From Patescibacteria group bacterium (GTDB lineage Bacteria; Patescibacteriota; Microgenomatia; Curtissbacterales; GWA2-41-24), in contig JBBTUN010000002.1 of assembly GCA_038063735.1 (NCBI GenBank), positions 13,321-77,320 of the forward strand: 64,000 nt of DNA. Direction: 5' to 3'. The position numbers and the translations under genes were made by a program. Positions 1,452-53,403 of this stretch are shown here, piece after piece (within the stretch, counting starts at the first letter, position 1; every line of letters begins with the position of its first letter). Under the pieces are notes generated by a model that worked only from the letters and a program-made list of their open reading frames with translations, did not search any database and was not told the DNA's origin.

Positions 1452-1676
1452 ATGGAAAGAAGATTGCCAAAACCTGTCGAGGTGGGGAGGTTTGCCAGAA
1501 AACAAGCTACCAGTATTTCGGTGGTGGTTGGAAGTAGTGGGTTGGTTACGACTACATTTATGTCGGGACGAGTAGACACTTTGATAGGTGTTGTGGGAGG
1601 AATGGCTGCAGGTTATGTTGCGCATCGGATTATTACGCACCCAAAAGGTAGTAGAAATGAACTTAAAGATAAATAA
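1452..1676 (+). CDS. hypothetical small membrane protein
   Basis: 74-aa ORF with a hydrophobic stretch; overlaps the chosen sufC start by about 20 nt. Confidence 0.25.
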   Translation: MERRLPKPVEVGRFARKQATSISVVVGSSGLVTTTFMSGRVDTLIGVVGGMAAGYVAHRIITHPKGSRNELKDK

Positions 1677-2547
1677 ATTAAAGGTTAAAGTTGGGGGCCC
1701 ATCCTTCGCTTCATCCTACGCTAAGGCTACGGATGACAAGAAAGCTATGGAGGGCAAGGAAATTTTAAAAGGTGTTGACCTGGAGGTTGGTGCCGGTGAA
1801 GTCCATGTGGTGATGGGGCCGAATGGGAGTGGAAAAAGTACGCTGGCGCAGGTGATAGCAGGGAACCCAATGTACAAAGTTCACAGTGGACAGATCACGG
1901 TTGACGGTAAAAACATAATTAAATTAAGTCCGGATAAAAGGGCGAAGCTGGGGATATTTTTGGGTTTCCAGAACCCGATTGAAATTCCGGGCGTTAGTGT
2001 TTTCAACGTAATTAGGAAGGCAAGTCAATCTCAAGTGGGTCCTGCCAGTAGTTTCCCTCCCGTCAGTGCTCAATTGAAAACAAAATCCGTGCGTAATGGT
2101 AAATCGAGTGTCAATCTGCGCGCTGCCGGAAGCCCTTCCACTACTGTCACCCAGTTTCGTCAAGATCTTTTAAAATATGCATCTTCTTTAAAATTATCAT
2201 CCGATCATCTTTCCAGATCTTTTAATGAAGGGTTTTCCGGTGGGGAAAAAAAGAGAAATGAGATTTTGCAGATGCTGGCACTGTCGCCAAAACTTGTAAT
2301 TTTGGATGAGATAGATAGTGGGTTGGATGTGGATGGATTGAAGCTGGTAGCCGGTGCTATCAAGAAATTCTCAATTCTCAATTCTCAATCCTCAATTATC
2401 CTTATTACCCACTATGCCCGCATCCTTAAATACATCAAGGCAGATTTTGTGCATGTGATGACTGATGGGAAAATTGTTAAATCCGGAAAGCAAAAATTGG
2501 CAACGGAAATTGAGGAGAAAGGATACCAGTTCGTTAATAGTTTATAG
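1657..2547 (+). CDS. sufC: Fe-S cluster assembly ATPase SufC, with two in-frame repeat insertions
   Basis: Walker A GPNGSGKST, ABC signature FSGGEKKR, Walker B LVILDEIDSGLD and C-terminal IILITHYARIL...GYQF, typical of SufC. Start chosen at MNLKINKLKV (SufC-like MLxIxNLHV); the ORF-track start at 1588 looks like an upstream extension. Extra segments at about 1692-1739 and 2030-2160 are absent from canonical SufC. Confidence 0.85.
   Translation: MNLKINKLKVKVGGPSFASSYAKATDDKKAMEGKEILKGVDLEVGAGEVHVVMGPNGSGKSTLAQVIAGNPMYKVHSGQITVDGKNIIKLSPDKRAKLGIFLGFQNPIEIPGVSVFNVIRKASQSQVGPASSFPPVSAQLKTKSVRNGKSSVNLRAAGSPSTTVTQFRQDLLKYASSLKLSSDHLSRSFNEGFSGGEKKRNEILQMLALSPKLVILDEIDSGLDVDGLKLVAGAIKKFSILNSQSSIILITHYARILKYIKADFVHVMTDGKIVKSGKQKLATEIEEKGYQFVNSL
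1692..1739 (+). repeat. family-B in-frame element (encodes GGPSFASSYAKATDDKK) in sufC
   Basis: gggggcccatccttcgcttcatcctacgctaaggctacggatgacaag; related to 7667-7702 and 55275-55350. Confidence 0.6.
2113..2155 (+). repeat. family-A in-frame element (encodes NLRAAGSPSTTVTQ) in sufC
   Basis: aatctgcgcgctgccggaagcccttccactactgtcacccag; about 80% identical to 50494-50540. Confidence 0.7.
2375..2400 (+). repeat. CTCAATT/CTCAATC tandem tract in sufC (encodes FSILNSQSSII)
   Basis: ctcaattctcaattctcaatcctcaatt. Confidence 0.6.
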
Positions 2548-8876: not shown

Positions 8877-9311
8877 GTGGATCTTTACCGCGAGGAAATT
8901 TTGGAACATTGGCAAAACCCGTTAAATTTTGGGGAAATGAAAAATGCCGATTTAGTGATTGAACAGGTTAACCCGCTTTGCGGAGACGAAGTGACGTTTT
9001 ACTTTAGGTTTTCGATCAGTCATCCTGAACTCGATTCAGGATCTAAAAAGATTCCGAAACAAGTTCGGAATGACGAGTGGCAAATAGCGAATGGTCAGTG
9101 GCGAATAAGTGAAGTATCGTTTACCGGTTCTGGCTGTGCTATATCTATCGCTTCGGCTTCGATTTTGTCGGAAAATATCAAGAATAAGAAAATCTCTACG
9201 TTATCCAAAATAACGGGTGAGGATGTTTTGAAATTGATTGGCGGACCAGTGGCACCGGCAAGACTTAAGTGTGCTTTTTTGTCGCTTGAGGTGATTCGCA
9301 AAATTCGATAA
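8877..9311 (+). CDS. sufU: SufU/IscU-like Fe-S scaffold protein (GTG start)
   Basis: NP.N.G.......V...NPLCGDEV and GSGCAIS..SAS with a C-terminal ...KCA.L motif are characteristic of SufU; contains the in-frame family-C element. Confidence 0.75.
   Translation: MDLYREEILEHWQNPLNFGEMKNADLVIEQVNPLCGDEVTFYFRFSISHPELDSGSKKIPKQVRNDEWQIANGQWRISEVSFTGSGCAISIASASILSENIKNKKISTLSKITGEDVLKLIGGPVAPARLKCAFLSLEVIRKIR
9021..9075 (+). repeat. family-C double-hairpin element in-frame in sufU
   Basis: cATCCTGAActcgaTTCAGGATctaaaaagaTTCCGAAacaagTTCGGAAtgac: two perfect 8-bp/7-bp hairpins. Confidence 0.65.
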
Positions 9312-25295: not shown

Positions 25296-26918
25296 TTATT
25301 TGTTTTTGCGGGTCCTGCCACGCTTTTCCCCCGTCCGACGTCCTCGCTTTGAGTTTGAATTTGGTAATGATGTTTTCTTTTCGCTTGCTGCGGGCGCTCG
25401 ACGGGGTCCCCCAAGCGTGTCACCCGCGTCTGGGTTTGTTGAGGTAGTTTTTCCTGTCACTAATTTTTCCAGTTGGCCTTTAACAAAATCGTCTATTTCT
25501 TTTTTATCTTCCAAATAGTCTTTTAGCTTTTTGTTTGCTTCAAACAGTGCGAGAATTTTTTCTTCCTGTTTTGCCACATCTTCTATCGGGACGCTGTCGA
25601 GATGCCCATTGGTGACTGCCCACAGTATGACTACCTGAGCAGTAACGTCCATGGGTTTTAATTGCGGTTGTTTAAGAACCTCGACGATTCTCCGGCCACG
25701 TTCGAGGCGAATTCTGGTACTTTCATCCAGGTCCGACCCAAATTGGGCAAATGCTGCCAGAGATCTGTATTGAGATAAATCCAGCCTTAGGGTTCCGGCA
25801 ACTTGTTTCATCATTTTTGTTTGAGCTGCTCCACCGACACGCGAAACTGATATTCCAGGATTTACAGCGGGGCGGATGCCAGAATTAAAAAGATCTGCTT
25901 CCAGAAAGATTTGACCATCCGTTATTGAAATAACATTGGTTGGGATGTAAGCAGACACATCTCCGGCCTGGGTTTCGATAATGGGTAGGGCAGTCAGCGA
26001 TCCACCGCCGTATTTTTCGTCCATACGGGCTGCCCGTTCCAGGAGCCTCGAGTGAAGATAAAAAATATCTCCGGGGTAAGCTTCACGACCGGAAGGTCTT
26101 TTCAAAAGAAGAGAAAGTTGACGGTATGCCCAGGCGTGTTTGGATAAGTCGTCATAAATTACCAGTGCGTCCTTTCCCTGGTCCATAAAATATTCGCCCA
26201 TTGCACAACCTGTGTATGGAGCAACATACTGCATAGAAGCGGAGTCTGCGGCAGAGGCAGCGACTATTATCGTGTGATCGAGTGCTTTGTGTTTTTCGAG
26301 TGTTGCAACAACTTGGGCGATTTTACTGGTTTTCTGGCCAATTGCTACATAGATACAAATGACACCTTTACCTTTTTGGTTAATTATGGTGTCGAGTGTA
26401 ATTGCTGTTTTTCCGAGTCCCCTGTCTCCGATAATTAGCTCCCTTTGTCCGCGTCCAATTGGTATCATGGAATCAATTGCTTTAAGGCCCGTCTGTAGGG
26501 GAGTGTTAACAGATTTTCTGTAGATTACACCAGAGGCTATTTTTTCAACAGGATAAGCTTTTTTGGCCTTTATCGCACCTTTGTTGTCGATCGGATTTCC
26601 TAGTGCATTGATCACCCGACCAATTAATTCTTCGCCAACGGGGACTTCCAGAATCCTGCCGGTTGTTTGGCACTCGTCACCTTCTTTAAGTTGTGTCCAG
26701 TCTCCGAAGATAATCACTCCGACCGAATCTTCTTCGAGATTTAAGGCCAGGCCGGTGATGTCGTGTGGGAATTTAATAAGTTCGGATGCGGCTACATCGG
26801 AGAGACCGGCAACTCTGGCAACACCGTCACCGATTTCCAAAATTGTCCCGACATTTTTCGGAGCTTGTGAGAATTTTGACTTTTCTATTTGTTTTTCTAT
26901 TTCTTCTACAATACTCAT
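25296..26918 (-). CDS. atpA: ATP synthase F1 alpha subunit with repeat-encoded C-terminal extension
   Basis: [10 protein letters not shown]-loop and alpha-subunit motifs; about 35 extra C-terminal residues encoded by the family-A element at 25390-25430. Confidence 0.95.
25390..25430 (+). repeat. family-A-like element forming the atpA C-terminal extension (opposite orientation to the gene)
   Basis: gcgggcgctcgacggggtcccccaagcgtgtcacccgcgtc aligns with gcgcgctgtcggtagcccttccaatcgtgccacccgcgaa. Confidence 0.45.
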
Positions 26919-30716: not shown

Positions 30717-30745
30717 CTGCTCGCTCATGTAAACTTAAAGAACAA
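30717..30745 (-). repeat. 29-nt element shared with 52035-52063 (opposite strand)
   Basis: ctgctcgctcatgtaaacttaaagaacaa is the exact reverse complement of ttgttctttaagtttacatgagcgagcag at 52035-52063. Confidence 0.7.
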
Positions 30746-31938: not shown

Positions 31939-32814
31939 TTATAGCTGTTCGAGTTTGAGTTTTTCCTCACCCTTAGGAAGTTGAATAAGGGAGAGGTAGC
32001 GCTCGGTAGTTGATAGCCTTTTGTGGCCGGCTATTTTAGAAATCAGAACGAGGGATGCTCCGCTTGAGAGGTGGTGCGCAACCCAGGTGTGTCTAAGGTC
32101 GTTGACTTTAGCGCCGGTTATGCCTGCTTTTCTGTAATATCTGTCGATTGCCGTTCTTATGTTTCTAACCAGAAGCGGTTTGCCGGTTTTTGTTACGAAT
32201 AGGGCTCTATTTGTAGTTTTTGGTCTTATTTCCAGATACTTTTTAAGGGCATTTTCGGCTGCCTTATTTAAAGGAACTGTTCTTTCTCCACGATTTTCTT
32301 GAGGGCGTACGAAAAGATGGCCTTCTTTGTTTTCTTCTCCAAAAAAGACATCGTCGATTCGTAAATTTGCGAGTTCACCAATTCTAACGCCTGTTTGAAG
32401 AAGAATTTCAATAATTGCGGCAATTCGAACGTCGTCTCTGGCTGCATCTCTTAGTGCTCTGTATTCAATAGGGGTTAGGATTCTGGGAGGTTTAGTTTCG
32501 AATTTTGGGTGTTCAACAAGGGAAGCCGGGTCGTCGGTTATGTATTCTTTGATTTTAAGAAAACGGAAGAACGTTTTTGTGGAATTTAGCTTTCTGGAGA
32601 GTGATTTTTGAGTGTAGCCCGTAGATTGCAGTTTTTCCAGGAAGTTCTTAATATCGTCCGGTTTTATTTCGTGGACGTGCACCTTTTGAAGGTCGGCGAA
32701 GAATTTGATCAGCTGTTCTATGTCCTTGCCGTATGCAAGCACAGTTGCCGATGCTCTTTTCCTGCCTTTTAAATGGTCAACAAATTCCTGATGTGCTTCT
32801 TGTAATTTCTTCAT
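31939..32814 (-). CDS. tyrosine site-specific recombinase (XerC/XerD/integrase family)
   Basis: C-terminal catalytic region ...LRHTWVAHHLSSGASLVLISKIAGHKRLSTTERYLSL (R..H..R.Y motifs) and an N-terminal SAM-like domain. Confidence 0.8.
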   Translation of the reverse strand: MKKLQEAHQEFVDHLKGRKRASATVLAYGKDIEQLIKFFADLQKVHVHEIKPDDIKNFLEKLQSTGYTQKSLSRKLNSTKTFFRFLKIKEYITDDPASLVEHPKFETKPPRILTPIEYRALRDAARDDVRIAAIIEILLQTGVRIGELANLRIDDVFFGEENKEGHLFVRPQENRGERTVPLNKAAENALKKYLEIRPKTTNRALFVTKTGKPLLVRNIRTAIDRYYRKAGITGAKVNDLRHTWVAHHLSSGASLVLISKIAGHKRLSTTERYLSLIQLPKGEEKLKLEQL

Positions 32815-38588: not shown

Positions 38589-39605
38589 TTGGGCATGAGT
38601 TCTCCAAAAATTCTTCTGTTAATTGATGGGAATAATCTTTTCCATCGTGCGTATCATGCCTTGCCTGCATTAACTGACAAAACGGGTGAGAATGCCAACG
38701 CCGTTTTTGGATTTTCTAATATGCTGATTAGGGCAGTAAAGGAGGTCGAACCTACTTATATCGCCTGTGCATTTGATACCAAGGCGCCAACATTCCGCCA
38801 TGTAGAATTTGAGGCTTATAAAGCGCAAAGAAAAGCCCCGCCGGAGGATTTATATCCACAGCTGCCAAAAGTTAAGGCAGTATTGGATGCTTTTGGTGTT
38901 AAATATTTTGAAAAAGCGGGTTATGAAGCAGACGACATACTCGCGACTGTAGCGTCGCGAGCAGTTAATAGTTCACAGTTAATAGTTCACGGTAAGAAAA
39001 ATGAGAAAACTGTGAACCCCTCTGGAATCGGGGTAAACCGTGAACCGTCTACTGTTGACCAAGTGGTGATTCTTTCCGGCGACCGTGACCTACTTCAACT
39101 CGTTGATGGAAATATCAAGGTTCAGGCGCCCGGGTGGAACCTGAGCTCAACCACATTATATGGTTCAAAAGAGGTGGAAGAAAAGTTTGGAATCACACCC
39201 CTTCAAATGGTCGATTATAAGGCGATGATCGGAGACCCGAGTGATAACATTCCGGGGATTGCCGGCATTGGACCAAAAACGGCCTCGGCATTACTTCAAA
39301 AATACAAAACACTTGAGGGAATTTATGACAATATTGATGAAATTTCGGGAACAACAAAAGATAAGTTGGAAAAGGATAAAGAAATTGCCCTGGCTGCTAA
39401 AAAACTTGTTAAGCTGGATTGTAATGTAGATATTAGCTTTAAGCTGTCAGAGCTTAGATTTAATCCGGATTGGGAAAAAGTAATAAAAGAATTTGAAGGC
39501 TTGGGGTTTAAAAGTATTGTTGCTAAATTGCAAGGTAAAGCAGTGGGCAATGCAAAATCTGTACATGTTGCTGATAATAATAAAGACCAGCTTGAGTTAA
39601 TTTAA
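38589..39605 (+). CDS. 5'-3' exonuclease (DNA polymerase I N-terminal/FEN-like domain) with in-frame repeat insertion
   Basis: ILLLIDGNNLFHRAYHA..., acidic catalytic residues and the H3TH region GIPGIAGIGPKTA; about 30 extra residues encoded by the family-D element at 38962-39056. Confidence 0.8.
   Translation: MGMSSPKILLLIDGNNLFHRAYHALPALTDKTGENANAVFGFSNMLIRAVKEVEPTYIACAFDTKAPTFRHVEFEAYKAQRKAPPEDLYPQLPKVKAVLDAFGVKYFEKAGYEADDILATVASRAVNSSQLIVHGKKNEKTVNPSGIGVNREPSTVDQVVILSGDRDLLQLVDGNIKVQAPGWNLSSTTLYGSKEVEEKFGITPLQMVDYKAMIGDPSDNIPGIAGIGPKTASALLQKYKTLEGIYDNIDEISGTTKDKLEKDKEIALAAKKLVKLDCNVDISFKLSELRFNPDWEKVIKEFEGLGFKSIVAKLQGKAVGNAKSVHVADNNKDQLELI
38962..39056 (+). repeat. family-D nested-hairpin element in-frame in the 5'-3' exonuclease gene
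   Basis: GTTCACAGTTaatagttcacggtaagaaaaatgagaaAACTGTGAACccctctggaatcggggtaaaccgtgaaccgtc: 10-bp and 8-bp inverted repeats. Confidence 0.65.
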
Positions 39606-40286: not shown

Positions 40287-41482
40287 AAGTAGCTCTAGTC
40301 CATGATTATTTAAACGAGTTTGGGGGTGCGGAGAGGGTGCTACTAGCATTGTCGGAGATTTATCCGGACGCGCCGATTTATACGGCTTTTTACCAGGAGG
40401 GATCTTCGGCTTACAAAAGGTTTAAAGGAAAAAAAATAATTACTTCCTGGGCACAGAATGTGCCATTTTTTGCAAGTAAATTACATAGTCCATTACGGTT
40501 TTTGGCCCCGTTTATTTGGAACAGTTTTGTCCACCAGCTGGCGGATTACGATGTGGTGATTGGTTCGAGTAGCTGGTACGTAACGAAGGGGTTCAAACGT
40601 ATCAAAAGTATCAAAGGTAACAAAAGTTTCGTTGAGATTTGTTATTGCCATACTCCGCCAAGGTATTTGTATGGATATCCTACTGCTTCAAATTTACAAA
40701 AGCATTTTTTGGTTAGGGTATATGCACTTTTGGTTAACCATTTTATGCGAGTTTATGATTTTGAGGCGGCGCAACGCGTTGACTGGTTTATTGCCAATTC
40801 CAAAGAGGTTGCAGGTAGGGTTAAGAAGTTTTATCGAAGAGAATCCACGGTGATTTATCCACCGGTGGATGTAAAAAAGTTCACAGTTAATAGTTCACAG
40901 TTAATAGTTAATAAAAATACTATGAACCATGAACCGTCAACTAATTACTTTCTGGTTGTTTCCCGGCTTGTGGCGGCGAAAAATGTAGACATTGCAGTGG
41001 AAGTTTGTACAAATTTGAAATTGCCTTTGAAAATAGTTGGAACGGGTAAGGAGATGCAAGCTCTTAAGGAGCTAGCAAGTTCACAGTCCTCAGTGAACGG
41101 TGAACAGTCAACAATTGAGTTTCTCGGTGATGTTAGTGATAGTGAACTGGTTGAGCTTTATCAAAATTGTCGTTCCTTAATTTTTTCCGGGAGCCAGGAA
41201 GATTTTGGGATTGTGCCGGTTGAGGCAATGGCCGCGGGTAAGCCTGTCATTGCTTTAGCGGAGGGCGGAATCAAGGAGACTGTAATTGATGGTAAAACCG
41301 GGCTTTGGGTAGAGGATTTGGCGCCGGGCGCATTTGTCATTGCCATTAATAAATTTTTGGAAATGGAGAAAAAGGGGCAGTGGGATAGCGAATTTATCCG
41401 CAAACACGCCCAAAAATTCAGCAAGGAACGTTTTAAGCGCGAAATTAAGAAATTTGTGGAAAGTAAGCACAAAAAAGCTTGA
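40283..41482 (+). CDS. glycosyltransferase family 4 (GT-B)
   Basis: C-terminal EDFGIVPVEAMAAGKPVIA (E..7E-like) with preceding Rossmann-like segments; start overlaps the HAD stop. Confidence 0.8.
   Translation: MKVALVHDYLNEFGGAERVLLALSEIYPDAPIYTAFYQEGSSAYKRFKGKKIITSWAQNVPFFASKLHSPLRFLAPFIWNSFVHQLADYDVVIGSSSWYVTKGFKRIKSIKGNKSFVEICYCHTPPRYLYGYPTASNLQKHFLVRVYALLVNHFMRVYDFEAAQRVDWFIANSKEVAGRVKKFYRRESTVIYPPVDVKKFTVNSSQLIVNKNTMNHEPSTNYFLVVSRLVAAKNVDIAVEVCTNLKLPLKIVGTGKEMQALKELASSQSSVNGEQSTIEFLGDVSDSELVELYQNCRSLIFSGSQEDFGIVPVEAMAAGKPVIALAEGGIKETVIDGKTGLWVEDLAPGAFVIAINKFLEMEKKGQWDSEFIRKHAQKFSKERFKREIKKFVESKHKKA
40596..40628 (+). repeat. GTATCAAA tandem units in-frame in the GT4 gene (encodes KRIKSIKGNK)
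   Basis: acgtatcaaaagtatcaaaggtaacaaaag; same unit as 62765-62805. Confidence 0.55.
40879..40945 (+). repeat. family-D element in-frame in the GT4 gene
   Basis: ttcacagttaatagttcacagttaatagttaataaaaatactatgaaccatgaaccgtcaactaat. Confidence 0.65.
41078..41112 (+). repeat. family-D short hairpin in-frame in the GT4 gene
   Basis: aGTTCACagtcctcaGTGAACggtgaacagtcaac. Confidence 0.5.
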
Positions 41483-45304: not shown

Positions 45305-46468
45305 ATGCGCATAGATTCTCTTAAGCTTACGAACTACCGGAATTTTACTGCTCAGAAGATATCGTTTGACGGAAAACTCACAGCGATTGTGGGTAAAAAC
45401 GGTGCCGGTAAAAGCAATATTTTAGAGGCTGTCGCTATGCTATCCGGAATTAGGCCGATAAGGGTAGAAACGGATTTGGATTTAGTCCGTTTTGGGGCAG
45501 AAAGTGCCAAAGTTGAAGGGGAAATTTCTTCTGAGGGTGACACCAAAAGTTTAATAGTTAACCTACAAGTTATAGATAGGCGAGTTGGTAAGTCTTTTTA
45601 TATAGGTGCATTTAAAAAGAGGCTCGTGGATTTTGTGGAAGTTTTTTCTATAGTTGTTTTCGAGCCAAGTGATTTAGATTTGGTTTCCGGTTCTCCGTCT
45701 TTGCGTCGTCGTCACCTGGACAGGTTTTTATCATCCATTGACGGTAAATACTGGAGAAGTGTCAGCGCTTATGGAAAGATTGTGACGAGAAGAAATAAGA
45801 TTTTGGGAAGAATTGGAGAAGGCAGGGCGAAACCTTTGGAGCTTGGTTTTTGGGACTCACGCCTCTTGGAGCACGGAAAGTATGTTTCGAAAGTGCGTGA
45901 GGAGTTTTTTGAGTTTTTGAATTTTGTCGAAGCGGTTAATGACTCGGGTCCTGTCAGTTCTTTCCTTCCCACTCCTTCGATCGTCTCAGGACAAGCAGTG
46001 CAGCGCGTTTATCCTGAGCGAAGTCGAAGGGCTGTCGGGAACCCTTCTAGAACTGCCACCCGCGAAAATATTAGCGGATTTTTCTGGAACTTAAAGCAGA
46101 GTGTTTTAACTGAGGAGAAGCTCAAGAATAATAGAGAGCGCGATATTGCAGCAGGCATTACGCTTTCTGGCCCGCATCGCGATGATTTCAGATTTGTTCA
46201 CAAAAAACGCGATTTGGAGTTTTTCGGTTCTCGCGGGCAGCAGCGTATGGCAGTTTTGGCACTAAAGCTTGCAGAGCTTGAGTACCACCGTGTCAAGCGC
46301 GGGCAACGGCCGGTACTAGCGCTGGATGATATTTTTTCGGAATTGGATTGGGAGCACAGGAATACTGTTTTGTCGGTAATATCAAATCAACAAACAATTA
46401 TTACGGCAGCGGAAAAAGAATCCATCCCGAGGGAAATTTTCAAAAAGGCAAAGATTGTGGAACTGTAA
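45305..46468 (+). CDS. recF: DNA replication/repair protein RecF, with in-frame repeat insertion
   Basis: MRIDSLKLTNYRNF......F.....AIVGKNGAGKSNILEA and C-terminal ...LDDIFSELD; about 40 extra residues at 45960-46080 encoded by the family-A element. Confidence 0.75.
   Translation: MRIDSLKLTNYRNFTAQKISFDGKLTAIVGKNGAGKSNILEAVAMLSGIRPIRVETDLDLVRFGAESAKVEGEISSEGDTKSLIVNLQVIDRRVGKSFYIGAFKKRLVDFVEVFSIVVFEPSDLDLVSGSPSLRRRHLDRFLSSIDGKYWRSVSAYGKIVTRRNKILGRIGEGRAKPLELGFWDSRLLEHGKYVSKVREEFFEFLNFVEAVNDSGPVSSFLPTPSIVSGQAVQRVYPERSRRAVGNPSRTATRENISGFFWNLKQSVLTEEKLKNNRERDIAAGITLSGPHRDDFRFVHKKRDLEFFGSRGQQRMAVLALKLAELEYHRVKRGQRPVLALDDIFSELDWEHRNTVLSVISNQQTIITAAEKESIPREIFKKAKIVEL
46029..46068 (+). repeat. family-A in-frame element (encodes RRAVGNPSRTATRE) in recF
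   Basis: gggctgtcgggaacccttctagaactgccacccgcgaaaa. Confidence 0.65.
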
Positions 46469-48111: not shown

Positions 48112-49179
48112 ATGTACTCCCCGAAATATCGAGTTTCAAATTTAATTTTAAAATATATCGGTAAGATAGAAGCCTCAAAGGAAGTTATCGAAAACGCACC
48201 ACTAGTGCCTGCGTACGAAGCTAAATTTCGACAGGAAGCGATAATCAGGACTGTCCATCACGGAACACATATAGAAGGCAATCCATTGGATAGCGGTGAG
48301 GTGGCTGCAGTACTCGAGGGTGGTAATGTTCCGGCTCGTGATCGTGATGTCCAGGAAATTTTAAATTATCGGGAAGTACTAAAGTACATTGATAAAACTC
48401 AAAACTCGAAACTCAAAATTCCAAATTTTAGCGAGAAAGATATTCTTACAATTCACAAATTAACGGTCGATAAAGTTTTGTCTGCTGCGACCGCAGGTAC
48501 ATATCGTCTAAATCAGGTTGTTGTTAAAAATTCTAAAACTGGAGAGATTAGTTTTAAACCTCCCGAGGCGAACAAAGTTAAAAAACTGGTAGGGGATTTT
48601 TTGGATTGGTTAAACGGAAAAGAAGCCAGCGATGTGCATCCGGTTCTAAAGGCAGGAATTACCCATTATGTTTTGGCTTTTATACATCCGTTTGTGGACG
48701 GAAACGGAAGGGCGTCACGTGCTTTTGCGACTTTGGTTTTGTTTCGTGGGGGTTATGATATTAAAAAGTTCTTTTCGATAGAAGAATATTTTGATAGGGA
48801 CTCTAAAAGATATTACGAAACTTTGCAGAGTGTTTCAAACCAAAAGGTGAATAGTCTATCTGAGCGGGATTTAACAGGTTGGCTTGAATATTTTTGTGAG
48901 GGAGTGGCGGAAGAGCTGGAGAGAGTCAAACAAAGAGTGCAAAAATTGTCACTGGATACAAAATTGAAAGGGAGAACGGGGCAGATAGTGCTTAACGAGA
49001 GGCAGGTAAAGCTTGTTGAGTATATCGAGGCTAATGGGTCTATTAATAATAAACAGTGGAGGGTTATTTTGCGTGATTTTTCCGATGACACAATTTTGCG
49101 GGATTTGAAGGATTTGCAGAAGAAAAAACTGGTAAAAAAGAAGGGGTCTACAAAGGGGGCCGTTTACGTACTGAGATGA
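48112..49179 (+). CDS. Fic-family protein (AMPylation fold) with C-terminal winged-helix domain
   Basis: Fic motif HPFVDGNGRASR (HPF.[DE]GNGR) and a C-terminal basic wHTH-like tail. Confidence 0.75.
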   Translation: MYSPKYRVSNLILKYIGKIEASKEVIENAPLVPAYEAKFRQEAIIRTVHHGTHIEGNPLDSGEVAAVLEGGNVPARDRDVQEILNYREVLKYIDKTQNSKLKIPNFSEKDILTIHKLTVDKVLSAATAGTYRLNQVVVKNSKTGEISFKPPEANKVKKLVGDFLDWLNGKEASDVHPVLKAGITHYVLAFIHPFVDGNGRASRAFATLVLFRGGYDIKKFFSIEEYFDRDSKRYYETLQSVSNQKVNSLSERDLTGWLEYFCEGVAEELERVKQRVQKLSLDTKLKGRTGQIVLNERQVKLVEYIEANGSINNKQWRVILRDFSDDTILRDLKDLQKKKLVKKKGSTKGAVYVLR

Positions 49180-49580
49180 AGAGTGATAGTGAGAGAGAGT
49201 TAGAGAGTAAAAGTGTCAGAACTAAGGGTTATCATAAGTTGATTTTGTGGCAGAAGGCAAGGGAATTTTTAAAGTTGGTGTACAAGCATTCAGAAAAGTT
49301 TCCTAAAAGTGAAGAATATGGTCTAAAGAGTCAGCTAAGGAGAGCGACAGTTTCAGTACTTTTAAACATAGTAGAGGGATATCGGAGAAATTCTACAAAA
49401 GAATTTATCAGGTTTTTGAATATTTCTGGTGCCTCTTTAAGCGAGGTAGAAGCTTGTATTGAGATAGCCATCGACCTTGGGTATTTTACTCAAACGGAAT
49501 ATAAAATTCTTGAAGAAAGGAGAGTGGAAATAGAAGTTATTTTATTCTCTTTTGAGAAATCTCTAAGAAAAAAACTATAA
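49176..49580 (+). CDS. four-helix-bundle protein (23S rRNA intervening-sequence protein family)
   Basis: ...GYHKLILWQKAREF...YKHSEKFPKSEEYGLKSQLRRATVSVLLNIVEGY, same family as 6611-6979. Confidence 0.7.
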   Translation: MKSDSERELESKSVRTKGYHKLILWQKAREFLKLVYKHSEKFPKSEEYGLKSQLRRATVSVLLNIVEGYRRNSTKEFIRFLNISGASLSEVEACIEIAIDLGYFTQTEYKILEERRVEIEVILFSFEKSLRKKL

Positions 49581-49593
49581 CTCTATTACTCTT

Positions 49594-51507
49594 ATGCTCT
49601 TTGCAACTTTATCGAAATATTACGAAAAGTTGGAGTCAACGAGTAAACGTTTGGAGCTTGTTGATATTTTATCCAAACTTTTTGGAGAATCGGACAGTGC
49701 GGAAATTGGCAAGATTTGTTATTTGTTGCAGGGAAGAGTTGCGCCGTTTTATATGCCTGTTGAAATGGGAATGGCCGAATCTATGGTCGCGCAGGCAATT
49801 GCCAAGGCGTATGGCCCCACTTCGCCAAGGCTTCGAGGGGTAAACATTACAAAAGATGAAGTTATTAAGCTTTATCGTAAGTTGGGGAATATGGGGCTAG
49901 CGGCACAAGAGTTAAGCAATAAGCAAAAAGCAAAAAGTAATAAGTTGTCAGTAAGCGATGTATTTGAGGAGCTTTTAAAGATTGCAAATACTGGAGGAGA
50001 AGGGTCGGTAGAGCAAAAGATAACAACCCTGGCAAACATTTTGAAAGATTTGGATTCTGTTTCCGTTAAACATGTGGTAAATATTCCGTTGGGAACGTTG
50101 AGGTTGGGAATTGGTGACCCGACGGTTATGGACGCACTTTCCATTGCCAAAACGGGAGACAAAAAACTGCGGCCGGTAATCGAAGATGCTTATAACAAAA
50201 CCAGCGATCTTGGATACGTTGCCGAAGAATTTTTTAAGTATGGAGAAAAGGGTTTGGCGACTATTAAATTAATCGTTGGAAAACCGGTTAGGCCGGCTTT
50301 GGCCGAGCGGATGCCAAATGCAGACGAAGTTGTTAAGCGAATGGGCGACAAATTTGCGGCAGAACCCAAGTTTGACGGATTTAGGGTGCAAATTCATTTG
50401 GACCGGCGCGGTATTGCGGGTCCTGTCACGATTTTCCCTCCCGCCAGTGCTCGATCAGGAAAGAAAACAGATCGTGATCAGTCGGAAAATGTTGATCTGC
50501 GCGCTGTCGGTAGCCCTTCCAATCGTGCCACCCGCGAAGTCGAGATTTTTTCCCGAAACCTGGAAGATATGACACATTCTTTTCCGGATTTAGCGCAAGG
50601 GGTTTTAAAAGAAGTCAAGGCAAAATCTGTGATTATGGAGGGGGAGGCAATTGCTTATAACCCGCAGACGGAGGAATTTTTACCGTTTCAGGAAACAACA
50701 AAGAGAAGGCGCAAATATAAGATCGAAGAAACTGCAAAAGCACTGCCACTTGTCTGTTTTGCCTTTGATATTTTGTATTTGGACGGGCAGGATATAACGG
50801 GAAAGCCGGAGGTTGAGCGCAGAAAACTGTTGGAAAAAATTGTTTCGAAAGACCTGCCTGCCGGCAGGCAGGGTAACCAAACGATTAGAATTGCCGAACA
50901 AAGGGTAATTTCTACTGCCAAAGAAATCCAGGAATTTTTTAATGAGGCAATTTCGGATGGGCTCGAAGGTTTGATGATTAAAAAACTGGATGCGCCATAT
51001 AAAGCAGGCGGGCGGGGTTTCCATTGGATTAAGTTTAAGCGGGCTTCCAGCGGAGATTTGGCAGATACGGTGGATTGTGTTTTGTTGGGGATTTATAGTG
51101 GCAAAGGCAAAAGGACGGAATTTGGGGATGGTGGGCTTTTGGTTGGGATTTATAACGATAAAGATGATGTTTTTGAGACGATTTCGCGGGTTGGGACGGG
51201 TTTGACGGATGAAGAGTTTAGAAAAGTCCATGAAATTGGCAAAAAGTTAAGGCTTGGTCATAAACCGGCAAGAGTAAGGTCTAAAATTGAACCGAGTTAT
51301 TGGGTAGAGCCGAAAGAAGTTTTGGAAATTTACGCCGACGAAATTACCAAATCTCCGATTCATACGGCTGGAGAAGAAGATGGAATTGGGTATGCGTTAA
51401 GATTTCCGAGATTAGTTAAATTTAGAGAGGCAGACAAAAGGGCTGAAGATGCAACTACGGTTGAGGAGATTAAAAAATTGTATAAAAATCAGTATGGCAA
51501 GAAGTAG
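49594..51507 (+). CDS. ATP-dependent DNA ligase, with in-frame repeat insertion
   Basis: Adenylation motif I AEPKFDGFRVQIH (K.DG.R), ...EGLMIKK.... and ...GIY..KG; about 40 extra residues at 50440-50560 encoded by the family-A element. Confidence 0.8.
   Translation: MLFATLSKYYEKLESTSKRLELVDILSKLFGESDSAEIGKICYLLQGRVAPFYMPVEMGMAESMVAQAIAKAYGPTSPRLRGVNITKDEVIKLYRKLGNMGLAAQELSNKQKAKSNKLSVSDVFEELLKIANTGGEGSVEQKITTLANILKDLDSVSVKHVVNIPLGTLRLGIGDPTVMDALSIAKTGDKKLRPVIEDAYNKTSDLGYVAEEFFKYGEKGLATIKLIVGKPVRPALAERMPNADEVVKRMGDKFAAEPKFDGFRVQIHLDRRGIAGPVTIFPPASARSGKKTDRDQSENVDLRAVGSPSNRATREVEIFSRNLEDMTHSFPDLAQGVLKEVKAKSVIMEGEAIAYNPQTEEFLPFQETTKRRRKYKIEETAKALPLVCFAFDILYLDGQDITGKPEVERRKLLEKIVSKDLPAGRQGNQTIRIAEQRVISTAKEIQEFFNEAISDGLEGLMIKKLDAPYKAGGRGFHWIKFKRASSGDLADTVDCVLLGIYSGKGKRTEFGDGGLLVGIYNDKDDVFETISRVGTGLTDEEFRKVHEIGKKLRLGHKPARVRSKIEPSYWVEPKEVLEIYADEITKSPIHTAGEEDGIGYALRFPRLVKFREADKRAEDATTVEEIKKLYKNQYGKK
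49921..49944 (+). repeat. AAGCAAAA tandem units in-frame in the ligase gene (encodes NKQKAKSNK)
   Basis: aagcaaaaagcaaaaagtaataag. Confidence 0.5.
50494..50540 (+). repeat. family-A in-frame element (encodes DLRAVGSPSNRATRE) in the ligase gene
   Basis: gatctgcgcgctgtcggtagcccttccaatcgtgccacccgcgaagt. Confidence 0.7.
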
Positions 51508-51867: not shown

Positions 51868-52034
51868 GTGCAGATTATATTCTTGGCTATAGTATTTTTC
51901 AATTTAGCCCCTCGATGCTTCGGGCAACAGGAAACCTTAAACTAGAAACTTCACTGCGTTTTAACTAAACTATAATTGTCATGCTGAACTTGTTTCAGCA
52001 TCTATAAACTTCCGAGGGATAAGAGCCCTCGGTA

Positions 52035-52063
52035 TTGTTCTTTAAGTTTACATGAGCGAGCAG
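52035..52063 (+). repeat. 29-nt element shared with 30717-30745, embedded in hairpins
   Basis: ttgttctttaagtttacatgagcgagcag; flanked by CTTCCGAG...CTCGGAAG and CCGAGGGataagagCCCTCGG stems. Confidence 0.7.
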
Positions 52064-52148: not shown

Positions 52149-52175
52149 AGATCCTGAATTAAATTCAGGATGACG
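52149..52175 (+). repeat. family-C first hairpin, intergenic copy
   Basis: gATCCTGAATtaaATTCAGGATgac. Confidence 0.5.
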
Positions 52176-52188
52176 TTGAAAGAAATGT

Positions 52189-53403
52189 ATGGACACTTCT
52201 AAAATTGCTAAGCAGATTCGGGTTAGTGAGAAAGATCTCCAATCAGTACTCAAATACATTGAAGACTACTGGCCTAAGTTGGTAAGAGAGCATAAAAAAG
52301 ATGTCCGCAGTTTGATTGGTTTGCCAAACCCCTACATTGTGCCTACAGACGGTGAAGCGTTTCAGGAACAGTATTATTGGGACAGTTATCCGATTGTGCG
52401 GGCTCTTATCGACCACCCAAAATATTCTAAGCTGGCGATTGGGATGGTAGACAATTTACTTTATTTAGTTAAACGGTTTGGGATTATTCCCAATGCTTCG
52501 CGCTATTTTTTTCTTTCACGGTCACAGCCGCCGGTTTTATCTATGATGGTTTTTTTGGTTTACGAAAAAACAAAAAATAAAAAGTGGTTTGCCAACGCGA
52601 TCAAGTTAGTTGAGGAAGAATATAGAGATGTTTGGATGGGTAGAGTGCATCTACGAAATTTTCGCAATGTTCACAGAGGACTTTCGCGCTATTATGACCT
52701 AAATGCTTTAAATGTTTTGGCGGAAGCGGAAAGTGGTTGGGATATGACTAGCCGTTTCATGGGGAAGTGTTTGGATATTTTGCCGGTTGATTTAAACTGC
52801 CTTCTTTATTTATATGAAGTTGATTTGGCCCGTGCATATGATATTTTGGGAAGTCCCGGGAAAAAGAAAAAATATCTGGATTTGGCTAAGAAAAGAGTTA
52901 GGTCAATTAATAATTTAATGTGGAGTGAACGAGGGGGATATTTTTTTGATTACGATTGGGTTGAGCGCAAAATTAGCCATTTGATTACGGTTGCCGGTGT
53001 TTTTCCGCTGTCGGTAGGATTAGCTTCTAAATCTCAGGCAGAGCGGGTTGTTAACGTAGTTGAAAAGACGCTACAGAAAAATTATGGTGTGGTGCAATCG
53101 GTACGTTTTTTTCAGAATATGCAGTGGGATTACCCCAATGGATGGGCGCCAATGCAGCTACGGGTTGTGGAGGGTCTTTTTAACTATGGCTTTGATCATT
53201 TGGCTGAGCGGATTATCAAAAAATGGCTTTTTCTGAACATTAAAGTCTTTGGCGAAACCGGATTTTTGTGGGAAAAATATGAAGTTGTCCATGGGCGGGT
53301 TGGGGTACCGGACAGGTACCCGACACAAGCCGGGTTTGGCTGGACAAATGCCGTGTTTTTGATTTTTTGTGAGATGCTTTCAAAATCTTCTAAAATTGCT
53401 TGA
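52189..53403 (+). CDS. trehalase (glycoside hydrolase family 37)
   Basis: Both trehalase signatures: ...F.EQYYWDSY and QWDYPNGWAPMQ. Confidence 0.8.
   Translation: MDTSKIAKQIRVSEKDLQSVLKYIEDYWPKLVREHKKDVRSLIGLPNPYIVPTDGEAFQEQYYWDSYPIVRALIDHPKYSKLAIGMVDNLLYLVKRFGIIPNASRYFFLSRSQPPVLSMMVFLVYEKTKNKKWFANAIKLVEEEYRDVWMGRVHLRNFRNVHRGLSRYYDLNALNVLAEAESGWDMTSRFMGKCLDILPVDLNCLLYLYEVDLARAYDILGSPGKKKKYLDLAKKRVRSINNLMWSERGGYFFDYDWVERKISHLITVAGVFPLSVGLASKSQAERVVNVVEKTLQKNYGVVQSVRFFQNMQWDYPNGWAPMQLRVVEGLFNYGFDHLAERIIKKWLFLNIKVFGETGFLWEKYEVVHGRVGVPDRYPTQAGFGWTNAVFLIFCEMLSKSSKIA

What the first reader, a model, noticed from the sequence alone, without database searches (positions are those of the whole stretch)
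50494..50540. Family A: a conserved ~45-nt GC-rich element inserted in-frame into sufC, DNA ligase, recF and the atpA 3' end
Three copies are about 80% identical at the DNA level: 2113-2155 in sufC, 50494-50540 in the ligase and 46029-46068 in recF. All sit inside otherwise canonical enzymes and are translated in the host reading frame. They encode a recognisable peptide: NLRAAGSPSTTVTQ, DLRAVGSPSNRATRE and RRAVGNPSRTATRE. A fourth, more diverged copy at 25390-25430 lies in the opposite orientation and supplies the unusual ~35-residue C-terminal tail of ATP synthase alpha. Each host protein is 30-45 residues longer than its family norm, exactly at these positions. The element is locally GC-rich in an AT-rich genome. 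This behaves like a selfish, in-frame-tolerated mobile palindromic element, comparable to the Rickettsia palindromic elements, but here in a CPR-like genome and with a defined peptide consensus. Nothing in the window encodes an obvious transposase for it.
Basis: seen in the sequence. Interest (0 to 1): 0.85.

Follow-up and report, generated by a model that had tools for sequence, protein, structure and literature searches.

The report
In-frame hairpin repeat in Curtissbacteria genes
A roughly 120-base hairpin-forming repeat has copied itself, in frame, into the coding sequence of dozens of essential genes of Curtissbacteria (candidate phyla radiation bacteria), always facing the same way relative to DNA replication; it resembles the Rickettsia palindromic elements but is a new family in a new phylum.

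Summary
The finding is real but under-measured. The flagged 45 nt are the 3' arm of a ~120-nt imperfect palindrome. The window holds four copies, all on the + strand: sufC 2034-2153, atpA 3' end 25307-25429 (antisense to the gene), recF 45945-46067, and ATP-dependent DNA ligase 50414-50538.

Pattern scans found 135 distinct copies, mainly in Candidatus Curtissbacteria. Of these, 110 lie inside long ORFs that fall into 36 host protein clusters.

- Structure: four stem base pairs covary fully.
- Translation: 87 of 88 sense copies use one reading frame, lengths differ by multiples of 3, and none carries a stop.
- Protein effect: solved orthologues lack the segment. AlphaFold models it in SufC as a disordered loop.
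- Mobility: near-identical copies sit in unrelated genes. Filled and empty alleles interleave among close ligase relatives. The same loops hold other hairpin families in other lineages.
- Orientation follows replication, not transcription. The top strand is the G-rich strand in 116 of 120 loci, and antisense copies sit in lagging-strand genes (Fisher p 9e-17).

The window has no transposase, but four related loci encode an IS200-like (Y1/HUH) transposase; its link to the element is unproven.

Best reading: a non-autonomous, RPE-like mobile hairpin, probably moving through single-stranded DNA at the fork. It is a new variant of a known kind.

The parts
50414..50538 (+). Complete element copy in the ATP-dependent DNA ligase gene (the flagged copy). 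It encodes GPVTIFPPASARSGKKTDRDQSENVDLRAVGSPSNRATR.
   Evidence: nhmmer E 1.2e-32; sequence; hairpin -40.7 kcal/mol, z -2.5; insertion relative to 2hiv residues 290-294 and relative to the empty allele in L045.
50418..50428 (+). 5' terminal box GGGTCCTGTCA. GGGT pairs with ACCC of the 3' box; CCT is a conserved bulge; the Y of TGYCA faces a Y.
   Evidence: Identical in all copies, but this box was part of the scan pattern, so that is by construction. Pairs counted.
50429..50432 (+). 5' half (CGAT) of the four hypervariable stem pairs. Its partner is 50522-50525 (ATCG).
   Evidence: Alignment columns 15-18 / 115-118: 12-20 of 35 copies changed on both sides at each pair, with 1-3 unpaired. All four window copies differ here yet still pair.
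50433..50453 (+). 5' inner box TTTCCCTCCCGCCAGTGCTCG.
   Evidence: At least 90% conserved at most positions in 35 copies. Apart from its first five bases (TTTCC), it was not part of the search pattern.
50454..50496 (+). Apical variable region. It differs between subfamilies a, b and c.
   Evidence: Alignment; subfamilies seen; central-region identity analysis.
50497..50521 (+). 3' inner box CTGCGCGCTGTCGGTAGCCCTTCCA.
   Evidence: At least 90% conserved, including fourfold-degenerate third positions.
50522..50533 (+). 3' half of the variable stem (ATCG) followed by the 3' terminal box TGCCACCC.
2034..2153 (+). Element copy in sufC, read in the sense orientation. It encodes GPASSFPPVSAQLKTKSVRNGKSSVNLRAAGSPSTTVTQ.
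   Evidence: nhmmer E 2.7e-30. Insertion between 2d2e residues 111 and 117. AlphaFold pLDDT below 50 and coil for model residues 130-160.
45945..46067 (+). Element copy in recF, read in the sense orientation, subfamily b (apical part encodes ..SIVSGQAVQRVYPERSRRA..).
   Evidence: nhmmer E 7.6e-27; hairpin -51.1 kcal/mol, z -4.2. The RecF of the syntenic genome L045 carries an 11-residue segment (PTFAKTAKGKG) at this site in place of the window's 45 residues. The central region is 95% identical to a copy in a different host gene, in L067.
25307..25429 (+). Most diverged copy. It lies on the + strand but inside the 3' end of atpA (- strand), so it is read antisense and supplies the C-terminal tail ...[42 protein letters not shown].
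   Evidence: nhmmer E 1.7e-23; translation. Homology to solved alpha subunits ends near residue 489 of 540. An orthologous antisense copy sits in the atpA of L011.
49594..51507 (+). Host gene: ATP-dependent DNA ligase. The insertion lies in the turn just after the adenylation motif KFDGFR.
1588..2547 (+). Host gene: sufC. The likely true start is 1657.
45305..46468 (+). Host gene: recF.
25296..26918 (-). Host gene: atpA (F1 alpha subunit), a lagging-strand gene in this window.
   Evidence: GC skew is positive on the + strand across almost the whole window.

Best explanation
Family A is a non-autonomous mobile DNA element of about 120 bp. One strand folds into a long imperfect hairpin made of conserved boxes, a conserved CCT bulge, a pyrimidine-pyrimidine mismatch and freely varying but paired stem segments.

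It is copied from place to place within Curtissbacteria genomes (shown). These genomes have almost no intergenic space, so most surviving copies are those that landed in a permissive surface loop of a protein, in the one reading frame (GPVSSFPPASARS...LRAVGNPS..ATR) that is open and hydrophilic. The host then translates it as a disordered ~40-residue loop or tail (translation inferred from frame statistics; disorder predicted).

Insertion or survival is tied to the replication fork. The top strand is almost always the leading-strand sequence, which is the lagging-strand template (shown through GC skew). The most likely mechanism is therefore movement of a folded single strand at the fork, as in IS200/IS605 elements and REP/REPIN repeats. 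It would be catalysed in trans by the IS200-like Y1 (HUH) transposase found in four related element-bearing loci (inferred, not shown).

New copies land preferentially where a hairpin repeat already sits, so the same loops are reused and turned over (inferred from hot spots, complementary flanks and remnants of older repeats).
For: Repeat and structure:
- Four window copies at E 1e-23 to 1e-32.
- On 35 copies, 94% of cells pair against 83% in shuffles; 102 double-sided changes against 28; none of 500 shuffles reaches the observed values; sliding the 3' partner by 1-3 columns drops pairing to 31-45%.

Spread:
- 135 distinct copies, 110 of them in ORFs of 150 aa or more, falling into 36 host clusters.
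- Hosts include SufC, RecF, DNA ligase, AtpA, topoisomerase I, CarA/CarB, RadA, ComEC, Obg, LeuRS, CysRS, ArgRS, DnaX, transketolase and PRPP synthetase.

Translation:
- 87 of 88 sense copies are in one phase. Most in-ORF copy lengths are 116 plus or minus 3n (98 of 110: 107, 110, 113, 116, 119, 122, 125); the rest are 115, 118 or 123.
- A second top-strand frame is stop-free in 81 of 135 copies but is not used by any of the 88 sense copies in long ORFs.

Insertion rather than ancestral loop:
- Solved orthologues lack it.
- Ligase alleles reading K.GDK (empty) and LDR... (filled) interleave in the tree. P0006 (empty) is sister to P0003/4 (filled).

Recent movement:
- 185 pairs of copies in different host families are at least 80% identical in the variable centre, up to 100%.
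- Only 27 of 91 copies have their nearest relative in the same host family.

Replication link:
- GC skew is positive on the element's strand in 116 of 120 loci: sense 80/81, antisense 18/20. Fisher p 9e-17.
- All four window copies are on the leading + strand, including the one in the - strand atpA.
- IS608 shows the same coupling to the lagging-strand template (PMC5027513).

Candidate enzyme:
- A Y1_Tnp gene in L036 (Pfam E 7e-12), with homologues in L072, L105 and L029, and a cluster present in many Curtissbacteria MAGs.

Protein tolerance:
- In the SufC model the insert has pLDDT below 50 and is coil, while the rest of the fold is confident.

Hot spots:
- The ligase and SufC loops hold seven or more unrelated hairpin-derived inserts in different lineages.
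- Flanks are complementary over 5 or more bp in 26 copies against 1.8 expected.
- Remnants of an older repeat flank the ligase copies.
Against: - No clean empty-versus-filled pair was found. At the ligase site the element is accompanied by replacement of KTGDK with LDRRGIA...E. The 'empty' RecF, Obg and LeuRS sites hold other repeats. True ends, target sequence and any target duplication therefore remain undefined.
- No direct target-site duplication is visible.
- The Y1 transposase is not in the window, is not flanked by repeats, and lies near elements no more often than chance would give (4 hits, about 2 independent loci, in 1.26 Mb).
- The conserved T.G wobbles of the top strand suggested that this strand folds better, but with DNA parameters the bottom strand folds more stably in 129 of 135 copies. 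The orientation bias may therefore be a survival effect rather than an insertion effect.
- GC skew is only a proxy for replication direction. No origin or terminus was mapped.
- The scan pattern required exact ends, so the sample is biased toward well-preserved copies.
- Translation is inferred, not observed.
Confidence: 0.7

Rival explanations
1. The element is the same kind of mobile hairpin, but the replication-linked orientation is a survival filter rather than an insertion rule. Copies whose more stable hairpin strand lies on the lagging-strand template stall forks or are deleted by slippage or hairpin nucleases, so only the other orientation persists. Spread could then occur by any route, such as template switching between hairpins or transformation plus illegitimate recombination, without a dedicated single-strand transposase.
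For: - With DNA parameters the bottom strand hairpin is more stable (mean -19.3 against -16.1 kcal/mol; 129 of 135 copies), and it is the bottom strand that sits on the leading-strand template.
- Established knowledge, not from these tools: asymmetric palindromes are deleted preferentially when the more stable hairpin is on the lagging-strand template (Trinh and Sinden 1991).
- Internally deleted copies exist, for example P0072 AGPVSREAPFGRASRATRQPY.
- No transposase is linked to the copies.
Against: - The energy difference is small (~3 kcal/mol) and vanishes with RNA parameters.
- The orientation rule is nearly absolute (116 of 120), which is more typical of a mechanistic constraint.
- A Y1 transposase family is present in these genomes.
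Confidence: 0.2
2. The copies are not merely tolerated parasites. They are maintained in place because the DNA hairpin or its boxes serve the host, for example as binding or recombination sites for a tyrosine recombinase or nucleoid protein, or as fork or chromosome-organising signals whose polarity must follow replication, like KOPS or Chi.
For: - Boxes outside the search pattern are 80-96% identical between copies at the same site of orthologous genes whose fourfold sites are saturated at 0.27-0.50 identity.
- Polarity is strict with respect to replication.
- Non-canonical features are conserved: the CCT bulge, the T.G wobble in 34 of 35 copies, and a Y.Y mismatch that flips T.C to C.T.
- A Xer-type tyrosine recombinase is encoded in the window at 31939-32814.
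Against: - Copies at orthologous sites are no more alike in their variable centre than copies in unrelated genes (0.58 against 0.54), and the nearest relatives are usually in other genes. This points to turnover rather than preservation.
- Close relatives lack the copy altogether.
- The atpA copy is decaying (box identity 8/20 and 5/25).
- Other, unrelated hairpin families occupy the same sites.
- The Xer-type recombinase is expected in any bacterium.
Confidence: 0.12
3. The segments are ancestral, lineage-specific protein loops, or a protein-level module selected for its peptide, and the DNA similarity merely follows from that.
For: - A recognisable peptide consensus exists.
- Several orthologues in different species carry it at the same site: topoisomerase I, RadA, ComEC, CarB, ligase and AtpA.
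Against: - The same DNA occurs in 36 unrelated host clusters.
- Antisense copies encode an unrelated peptide.
- Synonymous third positions are conserved and stem positions covary.
- 25 copies lie outside long ORFs.
- Empty alleles occur in sister lineages.
Confidence: 0.02
4. The hairpin is an RNA-level element, such as a small intron or processing signal, that is removed from or acts in the mRNA, so the proteins are not really longer.
For: - The RNA fold is stable (z -2.5 to -4.2).
- The flanks often extend the stem, which would bring the two 'exon' ends together.
Against: - If it were spliced out there would be no need for an open frame. Yet 110 of 135 copies sit stop-free in the host frame, 87 of 88 sense copies share one phase, and most lengths differ by multiples of 3.
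- Orientation follows replication rather than transcription, so about 20% of intragenic copies would be transcribed as the complement.
- No Rfam family matches.
Confidence: 0.03

Closest known systems
Rickettsia palindromic elements (RPE-1 to RPE-10; Ogata et al. 2000, as summarised in PMC10969869)
   Same: Palindromic repeats of about 100-150 bp, inserted in frame into many unrelated housekeeping ORFs, encoding a family-specific peptide, judged compatible with protein fold and function, with no transposase of their own and no known mechanism. The setting is likewise a small, reduced genome.
   Different: The phylum is unrelated (Patescibacteria/Microgenomates rather than Alphaproteobacteria) and there is no evidence of sequence relatedness (not tested directly). 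Features seen here that I did not find reported for RPEs in the papers read: strict polarity relative to replication, fully covarying hypervariable stem pairs between fixed boxes, reuse of the same loops by several hairpin families, and a co-resident Y1 transposase family.
REP / REPIN repeats with RAYT (REP-associated tyrosine transposase), and IS200/IS605 single-strand transposition (IS608; PMC5027513, PMC6006769)
   Same: Hairpin-forming repeats dispersed in many copies, with an IS200-like Y1/HUH enzyme present in few copies per genome. IS200/IS605 elements also show orientation tied to the lagging-strand template and no target duplication.
   Different: REPs are 20-40 nt, extragenic, usually carry a GTAG or CGTC head, and flank their RAYT gene. 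Here the unit is a single ~120-nt hairpin, mostly intragenic, without that head, and the Y1 gene is not flanked by repeats. No enzyme-element link has been shown.
Bacterial MITEs that make in-frame fusions (for example Coxiella QMITE1/2, PMC5896051; ERIC, BOX, Correia)
   Same: Short non-autonomous repeats with inverted ends that sometimes extend or interrupt ORFs in frame. A QMITE2 copy supplies the C-terminal 33 residues of EnhC, much as the atpA copy does here.
   Different: Most MITE copies are intergenic, carry direct target-site duplications and can be traced to a parent IS. Here most copies are intragenic, no direct duplication is seen and no parent IS was found.
Integron attC sites
   Same: Imperfect palindromes of 57-141 nt whose structure, extrahelical bases and short terminal boxes are conserved while the centre varies. 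They are recombined as a folded single strand, with orientation relative to replication mattering (title and abstract of PMC5371416 only, seen in the listing; the attC details are otherwise from my own knowledge).
   Different: attC sites lie between gene cassettes downstream of an integron integrase, not inside housekeeping ORFs. No integron integrase or cassette array is present; the window's tyrosine recombinase looks like an ordinary Xer protein.

Membership tests
Rickettsia palindromic elements (RPE) | Palindromic repeat of about 100-150 bp able to form a long hairpin | tested here: met
   ~120 nt; minimum free energy -35 to -51 kcal/mol; z -2.5 to -4.2; covariation.
Rickettsia palindromic elements (RPE) | Inserted in frame in many unrelated protein-coding genes, giving a family-specific peptide | tested here: met
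   110 of 135 copies lie in long ORFs; 36 host clusters; 87 of 88 sense copies in one frame.
Rickettsia palindromic elements (RPE) | Sequence relatedness to an RPE family consensus, or occurrence in Rickettsia | not tested
   No RPE consensus was available in the tools. All hosts here are Patescibacteria MAGs. Rfam gave no match.
Rickettsia palindromic elements (RPE) | Insertion sites lie on the protein surface and are compatible with the fold | tested here: met
   In the SufC model the insert is coil with pLDDT below 50, between two confident helices. The ligase insert lies in the turn after motif I when aligned to 2hiv. Only SufC was modelled.
MITE | Terminal inverted repeats | tested here: met
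   GCGGGT...ACCCGC plus TGYCA...TGYCA.
MITE | Direct target-site duplication flanking each copy | tested here: not met
   Flanks are inverted complements (TGC/GCA, TCG/CTC and longer variable stems), not direct repeats.
MITE | A parent autonomous IS with the same ends | tested here: inconclusive
   None was seen in 1.26 Mb of loci, but the tools cannot scan for the two ends separated by a long gap.
REP/REPIN-RAYT system | A RAYT-type Y1/HUH gene in the same genome | tested here: inconclusive
   Y1_Tnp genes occur in L036, L072, L105 and L029 and in many Curtissbacteria MAGs. None is in the 64-kb window, and the rest of that genome was not available.
REP/REPIN-RAYT system | Repeats flank the RAYT gene (REPtron) | tested here: not met
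   No significant inverted repeats within ~400 nt of the gene in L036, L072 or L105. The nearest family A copy is 0.8-3.8 kb away.
REP/REPIN-RAYT system | Short (20-40 nt) extragenic palindromes with a conserved GTAG or CGTC head | tested here: not met
   The unit is ~120 nt, 81% of copies are intragenic, and there is no conserved GTAG or CGTC at the ends.
IS200/IS605-type single-strand elements (including PATEs) | Orientation biased so that one strand lies on the lagging-strand template | tested here: met
   116 of 120 loci by GC skew; Fisher p 9e-17.
IS200/IS605-type single-strand elements (including PATEs) | Insertion 3' of a specific tetra- or pentanucleotide, with distinct subterminal hairpins at left and right ends | tested here: inconclusive
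   The flanks show the preferences T-G-C | element | G-C-A, but these pair with each other and may belong to the element. The element is one long hairpin rather than two subterminal ones.
Integron attC | Associated integron integrase and cassette array | tested here: not met
   Copies lie inside housekeeping ORFs. The only tyrosine recombinase in the window is Xer-like.
Any Rfam RNA family | Covariance-model match | tested here: not met
   cmscan of the whole window at E up to 1 returned only tRNAs and two weak unrelated hits.

The most novel reading that the evidence does not exclude
Curtissbacteria carry an active REPIN/RAYT-like single-strand hairpin system that has moved from intergenic DNA into coding sequence. 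A domesticated Y1 transposase pastes ~120-nt hairpins into the lagging-strand template, preferentially at existing hairpins. In this way it continuously rewrites a fixed set of surface loops in essential enzymes (ligase, SufC, RecF, topoisomerase I, tRNA synthetases, ATP synthase). This would make hairpin repeats a major, ongoing source of protein-sequence novelty in candidate phyla radiation bacteria.
Probability: 0.35. Interest if true: 0.8.

Novelty: new variant of a known kind. Interest (0 to 1): 0.68.

Why it matters
In-frame palindromic repeats have so far been a curiosity known mainly from Rickettsia, and their mechanism has stayed unknown since 2000. This is an independent case in an uncultivated phylum, and it has enough copies and enough related genomes to extract rules:

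- one tolerated reading frame;
- strict polarity relative to the replication fork;
- reuse and turnover of the same protein loops by several hairpin families;
- a co-resident Y1/HUH transposase as a testable candidate enzyme.

If confirmed, it would give a mechanistic handle on how selfish hairpins enter genes. It would explain part of the unusual insertions seen in candidate phyla radiation proteins. It is also a warning for annotation and structure prediction, because 40-residue disordered loops in core enzymes here are repeat-derived. Finally, it shows that very compact genomes can push mobile DNA into coding sequence rather than exclude it.

Tried and rejected
- Rfam scan of the whole window at E up to 1: no family at any copy.
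- Peptide-profile word search of the 5.8-billion protein set: useless, returning only 4 short ORFs. The word filter apparently does not suit a 43-residue query.
- Profile search of 1.84 billion cluster representatives: only 25 hits, because representatives at 50% identity seldom carry the insert. It still added LeuRS with three copies, Mur ligase, Obg and glycosyltransferase hosts.
One E 0.03 hit nevertheless led to the real Y1_Tnp gene in L036.
- phmmer of the Y1 protein against PDB sequences: no relative.
- Search for a clean empty site (ligase, recF, Obg, LeuRS, SufC): every 'empty' counterpart either had other residues replaced or held another repeat. Ends and target could therefore not be fixed.
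- My first argument, that the top strand folds better because it holds the G.T wobbles, was not borne out by energy calculations and was dropped.
- Spliced-intron, ancestral-loop and peptide-module readings were rejected on frame, orientation and synonymous-site evidence.
- Literature searches for a prior description in CPR/Patescibacteria found none in the held library.
Full report
**1. Observation**

Reading the four reported places shows that the similarity starts about 80 nt upstream of each reported stretch. Every copy begins (G)CGGGTCCTGYCA-NNNN-TTTCCCTCCC and ends CTGCGCGCTGTCGGnAGCCCTTCC-A-NNNN-TGYCACCCG(C).

A profile of the four full copies finds exactly these four in the 64-kb window:
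- 50414-50538, E 1e-32
- 2034-2153, E 3e-30
- 45945-46067, E 8e-27
- 25307-25429, E 2e-23

Nothing else scores below E 1.7. The distance from GGGTCC to CACCC is 116 nt in all four.

All four lie on the + strand. The 'opposite orientation' of the fourth copy is that of its host gene atpA, which is on the - strand. The copies have 53-59% GC in a window of 38-44%.

**2. Anatomy**

Each copy folds into one long imperfect hairpin, with RNA energies of -35 to -51 kcal/mol and z-scores of -2.5 to -4.2 against dinucleotide shuffles. Among the four window copies alone, 11 of 24 consensus pairs show compensatory changes.

On 35 copies from many genomes, a structure I specified has 94.3% of cells paired against 83.3% in shuffles. 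It shows 102 double-sided changes against 28. No shuffle out of 500 reaches the observed values, and sliding the 3' partner by 1-3 columns drops pairing to 31-45%.

The features are:
- Four hypervariable, fully covarying base pairs (window 50429-50432 with 50522-50525), lying between invariant boxes.
- A basal stem GGGT/ACCC, extended by variable complementary bases.
- A conserved 5' CCT bulge.
- A pyrimidine-pyrimidine mismatch that flips between T.C and C.T.
- A T.G wobble kept in 34 of 35 copies.
- An asymmetric internal loop (TTTCC against CCCTTCC).
- A variable apex that defines at least three subfamilies.

No Rfam family matches.

**3. The segments are insertions and they are translated**

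Alignment to solved orthologues places each segment where the relatives have a short turn or nothing:
- SufC residues ~153-188 against five residues of 2d2e.
- Ligase residues 270-314 against three residues of 2hiv, immediately after the adenylation motif KFDGFR.
- RecF residues 206-264, in a variable region.
- AtpA, roughly the last 50 residues.

An AlphaFold model of SufC is confident overall (pTM 0.76). It leaves residues 130-160 as coil with pLDDT below 50, between helices 115-125 and 164-177.

The frame statistics argue that the segments are read by ribosomes rather than removed. Of 135 distinct copies, 110 lie in ORFs of at least 150 aa. Eighty-seven of the 88 sense copies use the same phase. 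Most in-ORF lengths are 116 plus or minus 3n, and none is interrupted by a stop. A second top-strand frame is stop-free in 81 of 135 copies, yet none of the 88 sense copies in long ORFs uses it. That frame would encode a hydrophobic, cysteine-containing peptide, so the peptide's nature as well as its openness appears to be filtered (inference).

**4. Distribution**

An exact-end pattern found 46 matches in 44 loci of the one-genome-per-species collection. Nearly all are Candidatus Curtissbacteria, with a few in Levybacteria, Roizmanbacteria, WWE3 and some MAGs labelled Gammaproteobacteria that carry Curtissbacteria-type genes.

Hosts identified by Pfam include SufC, RecF, ATP-dependent ligase, AtpA, topoisomerase I, CarA, CarB (three sites), RadA, ComEC, Obg (two sites), LeuRS (two sites, and three copies in one protein), CysRS, ArgRS, DnaX, transketolase, PRPP synthetase, polyprenyl synthetase, Mur ligase, sortase, glycosyltransferases and membrane proteins. 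Clustering of the host ORFs gives 36 families.

**5. The conserved unit is DNA, not the peptide**

Antisense copies encode a different peptide (GG.SGRAPDSAQ...STGGKET.DRTR). Within the boxes, fourfold-degenerate third positions are at least 90% conserved.

Boxes that were not part of the scan pattern are 80-96% identical between copies at the same site of orthologous genes, while the fourfold sites of those genes are saturated at 0.27-0.50 identity.

This is better explained by turnover than by preservation in place:
- In the variable apex, copies in the same host family are no more alike (0.58) than copies in different families (0.54).
- Only 27 of 91 copies have their closest relative in the same host family.
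- 185 pairs in different host families are at least 80% identical there, up to 100%. The window's recF copy is 95% identical to a copy in another gene in L067.

**6. Presence and absence, and hot spots**

Among 120 close ligase homologues (65-100% identity), about half read VQIH-K[NDST]G[DN]K-VEIF (empty). The others read VQIH-LDR..., followed by very different inserts:
- family A;
- an internally deleted family A;
- at least six other hairpin-derived sequences, such as SLMVNSSS..ERSTINDK, AKARPL..ELRPGLK, LSLGHSLGRDQ.., GPVIARNSKNDEAILE.., GHWPLAKGEG.. and HVILGSEATPES...

In a neighbour-joining tree made with the insert masked, filled and empty alleles are interleaved. P0006 (empty, from a 1.08-Mb contig syntenic with the window) is sister to P0003/4 (family A).

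The SufC loop behaves the same way. In ComEC and topoisomerase I the same site holds different family A subfamilies in different species.

The flanks just outside the conserved core are complementary to each other, with variable sequence, far more often than chance: runs of 5 or more bp in 26 copies against 1.8 expected, and 7 or more bp in 14 against 0.3. In the ligase, the flanks of family A copies retain pieces of the SLMVN-type repeat seen alone in sister lineages. Small GC-rich hairpins are in turn nested inside family A copies in L040.

Together these observations suggest that new hairpins land in, or replace the tip of, hairpins already present. I could not find a clean empty site, so the exact ends, the target and the origin of the shared 'LDR' junction remain unexplained.

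**7. Orientation follows replication**

The window has positive GC skew on the + strand across almost its whole length. All four copies are on that strand, including the one in the - strand atp operon.

Across all loci with at least 2.5 kb of flank, the element's top strand is the G-rich strand in 116 of 120 cases: 80 of 81 sense copies and 18 of 20 antisense copies. Antisense copies therefore sit in lagging-strand genes and sense copies in leading-strand genes (Fisher p 9e-17). The 25 copies outside long ORFs obey the same rule, 24 of 25.

The top strand thus has the sequence of the lagging-strand template. This is the signature described for IS608 and other IS200/IS605 elements, which move as folded single strands at the fork (PMC5027513).

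A caveat applies. With DNA energy parameters the bottom strand folds more stably in 129 of 135 copies. Selective loss of copies whose stronger hairpin lies on the lagging-strand template is therefore a live alternative. That orientation-dependent palindrome deletion effect is established knowledge, not something tested here.

**8. Candidate enzyme**

The window encodes no transposase. Its unknown ORFs include a Xer-type tyrosine recombinase (31939-32814), a TrwB-like ATPase, a Fic protein and a 23S-IVS family protein.

A weak tblastn hit led to a 218-residue ORF in L036 (4689-5345), 0.8 kb from a family A copy. It carries the motifs NHFHFLI, QGRF and YIHLNP and matches Pfam Y1_Tnp at E 7e-12, above the family's curated cut-off. 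Homologues lie in L072, L105 and L029. The cluster occurs in many Curtissbacteria MAGs, where one source names it 'Transposase IS200-like domain-containing protein'.

The gene is not flanked by inverted repeats. Its nearness to elements is no more than chance would give in 1.26 Mb of sampled DNA. It is a lead, not a demonstrated partner.

**9. Comparison with known systems**

In outcome the element matches the Rickettsia palindromic elements: 100-150-bp palindromes inserted in frame in many unrelated genes, each family with its own peptide, compatible with the protein fold, and of unknown mechanism (PMC10969869). Like a Coxiella QMITE2 copy in enhC, the atpA copy provides a new C-terminus (PMC5896051).

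In likely mechanism it resembles REP/REPIN-RAYT and IS200/IS605 systems. It fails their defining features of short extragenic units, a GTAG/CGTC head and repeats flanking the transposase gene. It also lacks the direct target duplications of classical MITEs.

I found no description of such elements in CPR/Patescibacteria in the held literature. That library is incomplete, so prior description cannot be excluded.

**10. Verdict**

This is a real, well-supported family of in-frame mobile hairpin repeats. It is a new variant of a known kind rather than a new category. Its interest lies in the replication-locked polarity, the hot-spot turnover of loops in essential enzymes, and a testable enzyme candidate.

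Noticed in passing
L036:4689-5345 (-), L072:1663-2322 (+), L105:632-1228, L029:2-400: IS200-like Y1/HUH transposase genes (Pfam Y1_Tnp E 7e-12; motifs NHFHFLI, QGRF, YIHLNP) in element-bearing Curtissbacteria loci. They form a cluster of 16 sequences found in many Curtissbacteria MAGs. The genes are not flanked by repeats.
   Followed up: partly
window 6064-6090, 9019-9074, 51978-52004, 52149-52174: A second hairpin family (GTCATCCTGAAC...GTTCAGGATC type). Two copies are translated inside suf-cluster ORFs: ...GHPELGSESRSRNPSTSLRASKFGMT... in the 5994-6614 ORF and ...SHPELDSGSKKIPKQVRNDE... in the 8877-9311 ORF. The same peptide type fills the ligase loop in P0014.
   Followed up: no
window 2525-2564, 38961-38996, 40876-40956, 41076-41111: Heptamer tandem repeats (AGTTCAC/AGTTAAT) in direct and inverted copies. 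Some are translated inside ORFs (..VNSSQLIVHG.., ..TVNSSQLIVNKNTMNHEPSTN..). Related SLMVNSSS..STINDK inserts fill the ligase loop in sister lineages. 'Empty' Obg and LeuRS sites in L041 and L042 hold (TTCGAAA)n-type heptamer arrays.
   Followed up: partly
window ~1693-1743 (sufC N-terminus) and within 7623-8876: Short inserts of the type GGPSFASSYAKATDDKK / GPSYAKASEGKK. The SufC one is present or absent among close orthologues and has lowered pLDDT in the model. RecF of L045 carries PTFAKTAKGKG where the window has family A.
   Followed up: partly
window 30717-30745 (-) and 52035-52063 (+): A 29-nt perfect match, TTGTTCTTTAAGTTTACATGAGCGAGCAG, lies about 115-125 nt upstream of two unrelated genes (29066-30604 on the - strand and 52189-53403 on the + strand), in the same orientation relative to each gene. 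It may be a shared promoter or leader.
   Followed up: partly
Ligase homologues P0001-P0120; window 50398-50540: All filled ligase alleles start LDR/LNR/LDK whatever repeat family follows, and they lack the K.GDK of empty alleles. Filled and empty alleles are nevertheless interleaved in the tree. Some orthologues (P0014, P0024, P0026) also carry an intein right after KFDGFR.
   Followed up: partly
L040:5365-5511 and L040:3228-3428: Family A copies of 147 and 201 nt that carry a ~30-nt GC-rich hairpin (GCTGAAAGCGAGGCTCGCCTTCGGCGGCCC) nested in the 5' arm. The longer one also has extra apical sequence.
   Followed up: partly
window 31939-32814 (-), 17502-19868 (+), 49176-49580 (+): A Xer-type tyrosine recombinase, a TrwB/VirD4-like coupling ATPase, and a 23S rRNA intervening-sequence family protein. 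A second look-alike of the last, at 6611-6979, was judged by eye only.
   Followed up: partly
L004, L005, L006, L008, L018, L020, L022, L024, L028, L030, L036, L039, L041: TPA MAGs titled 'uncultured Gammaproteobacteria' carry the element. L039 also encodes a Curtissbacteria-type ATP-dependent ligase, with the element at the same site as in the window. The labels are probably wrong.
   Followed up: no
alignment A3 columns 12 and 121 (window 50429-1 region; for example 2048/2147): The pyrimidine-pyrimidine mismatch in the basal stem is either T.C or C.T (TGTCA...TGCCA or TGCCA...TGTCA). It is C.T in 7 of 35 copies from different hosts, which is a covarying non-canonical pair.
   Followed up: no
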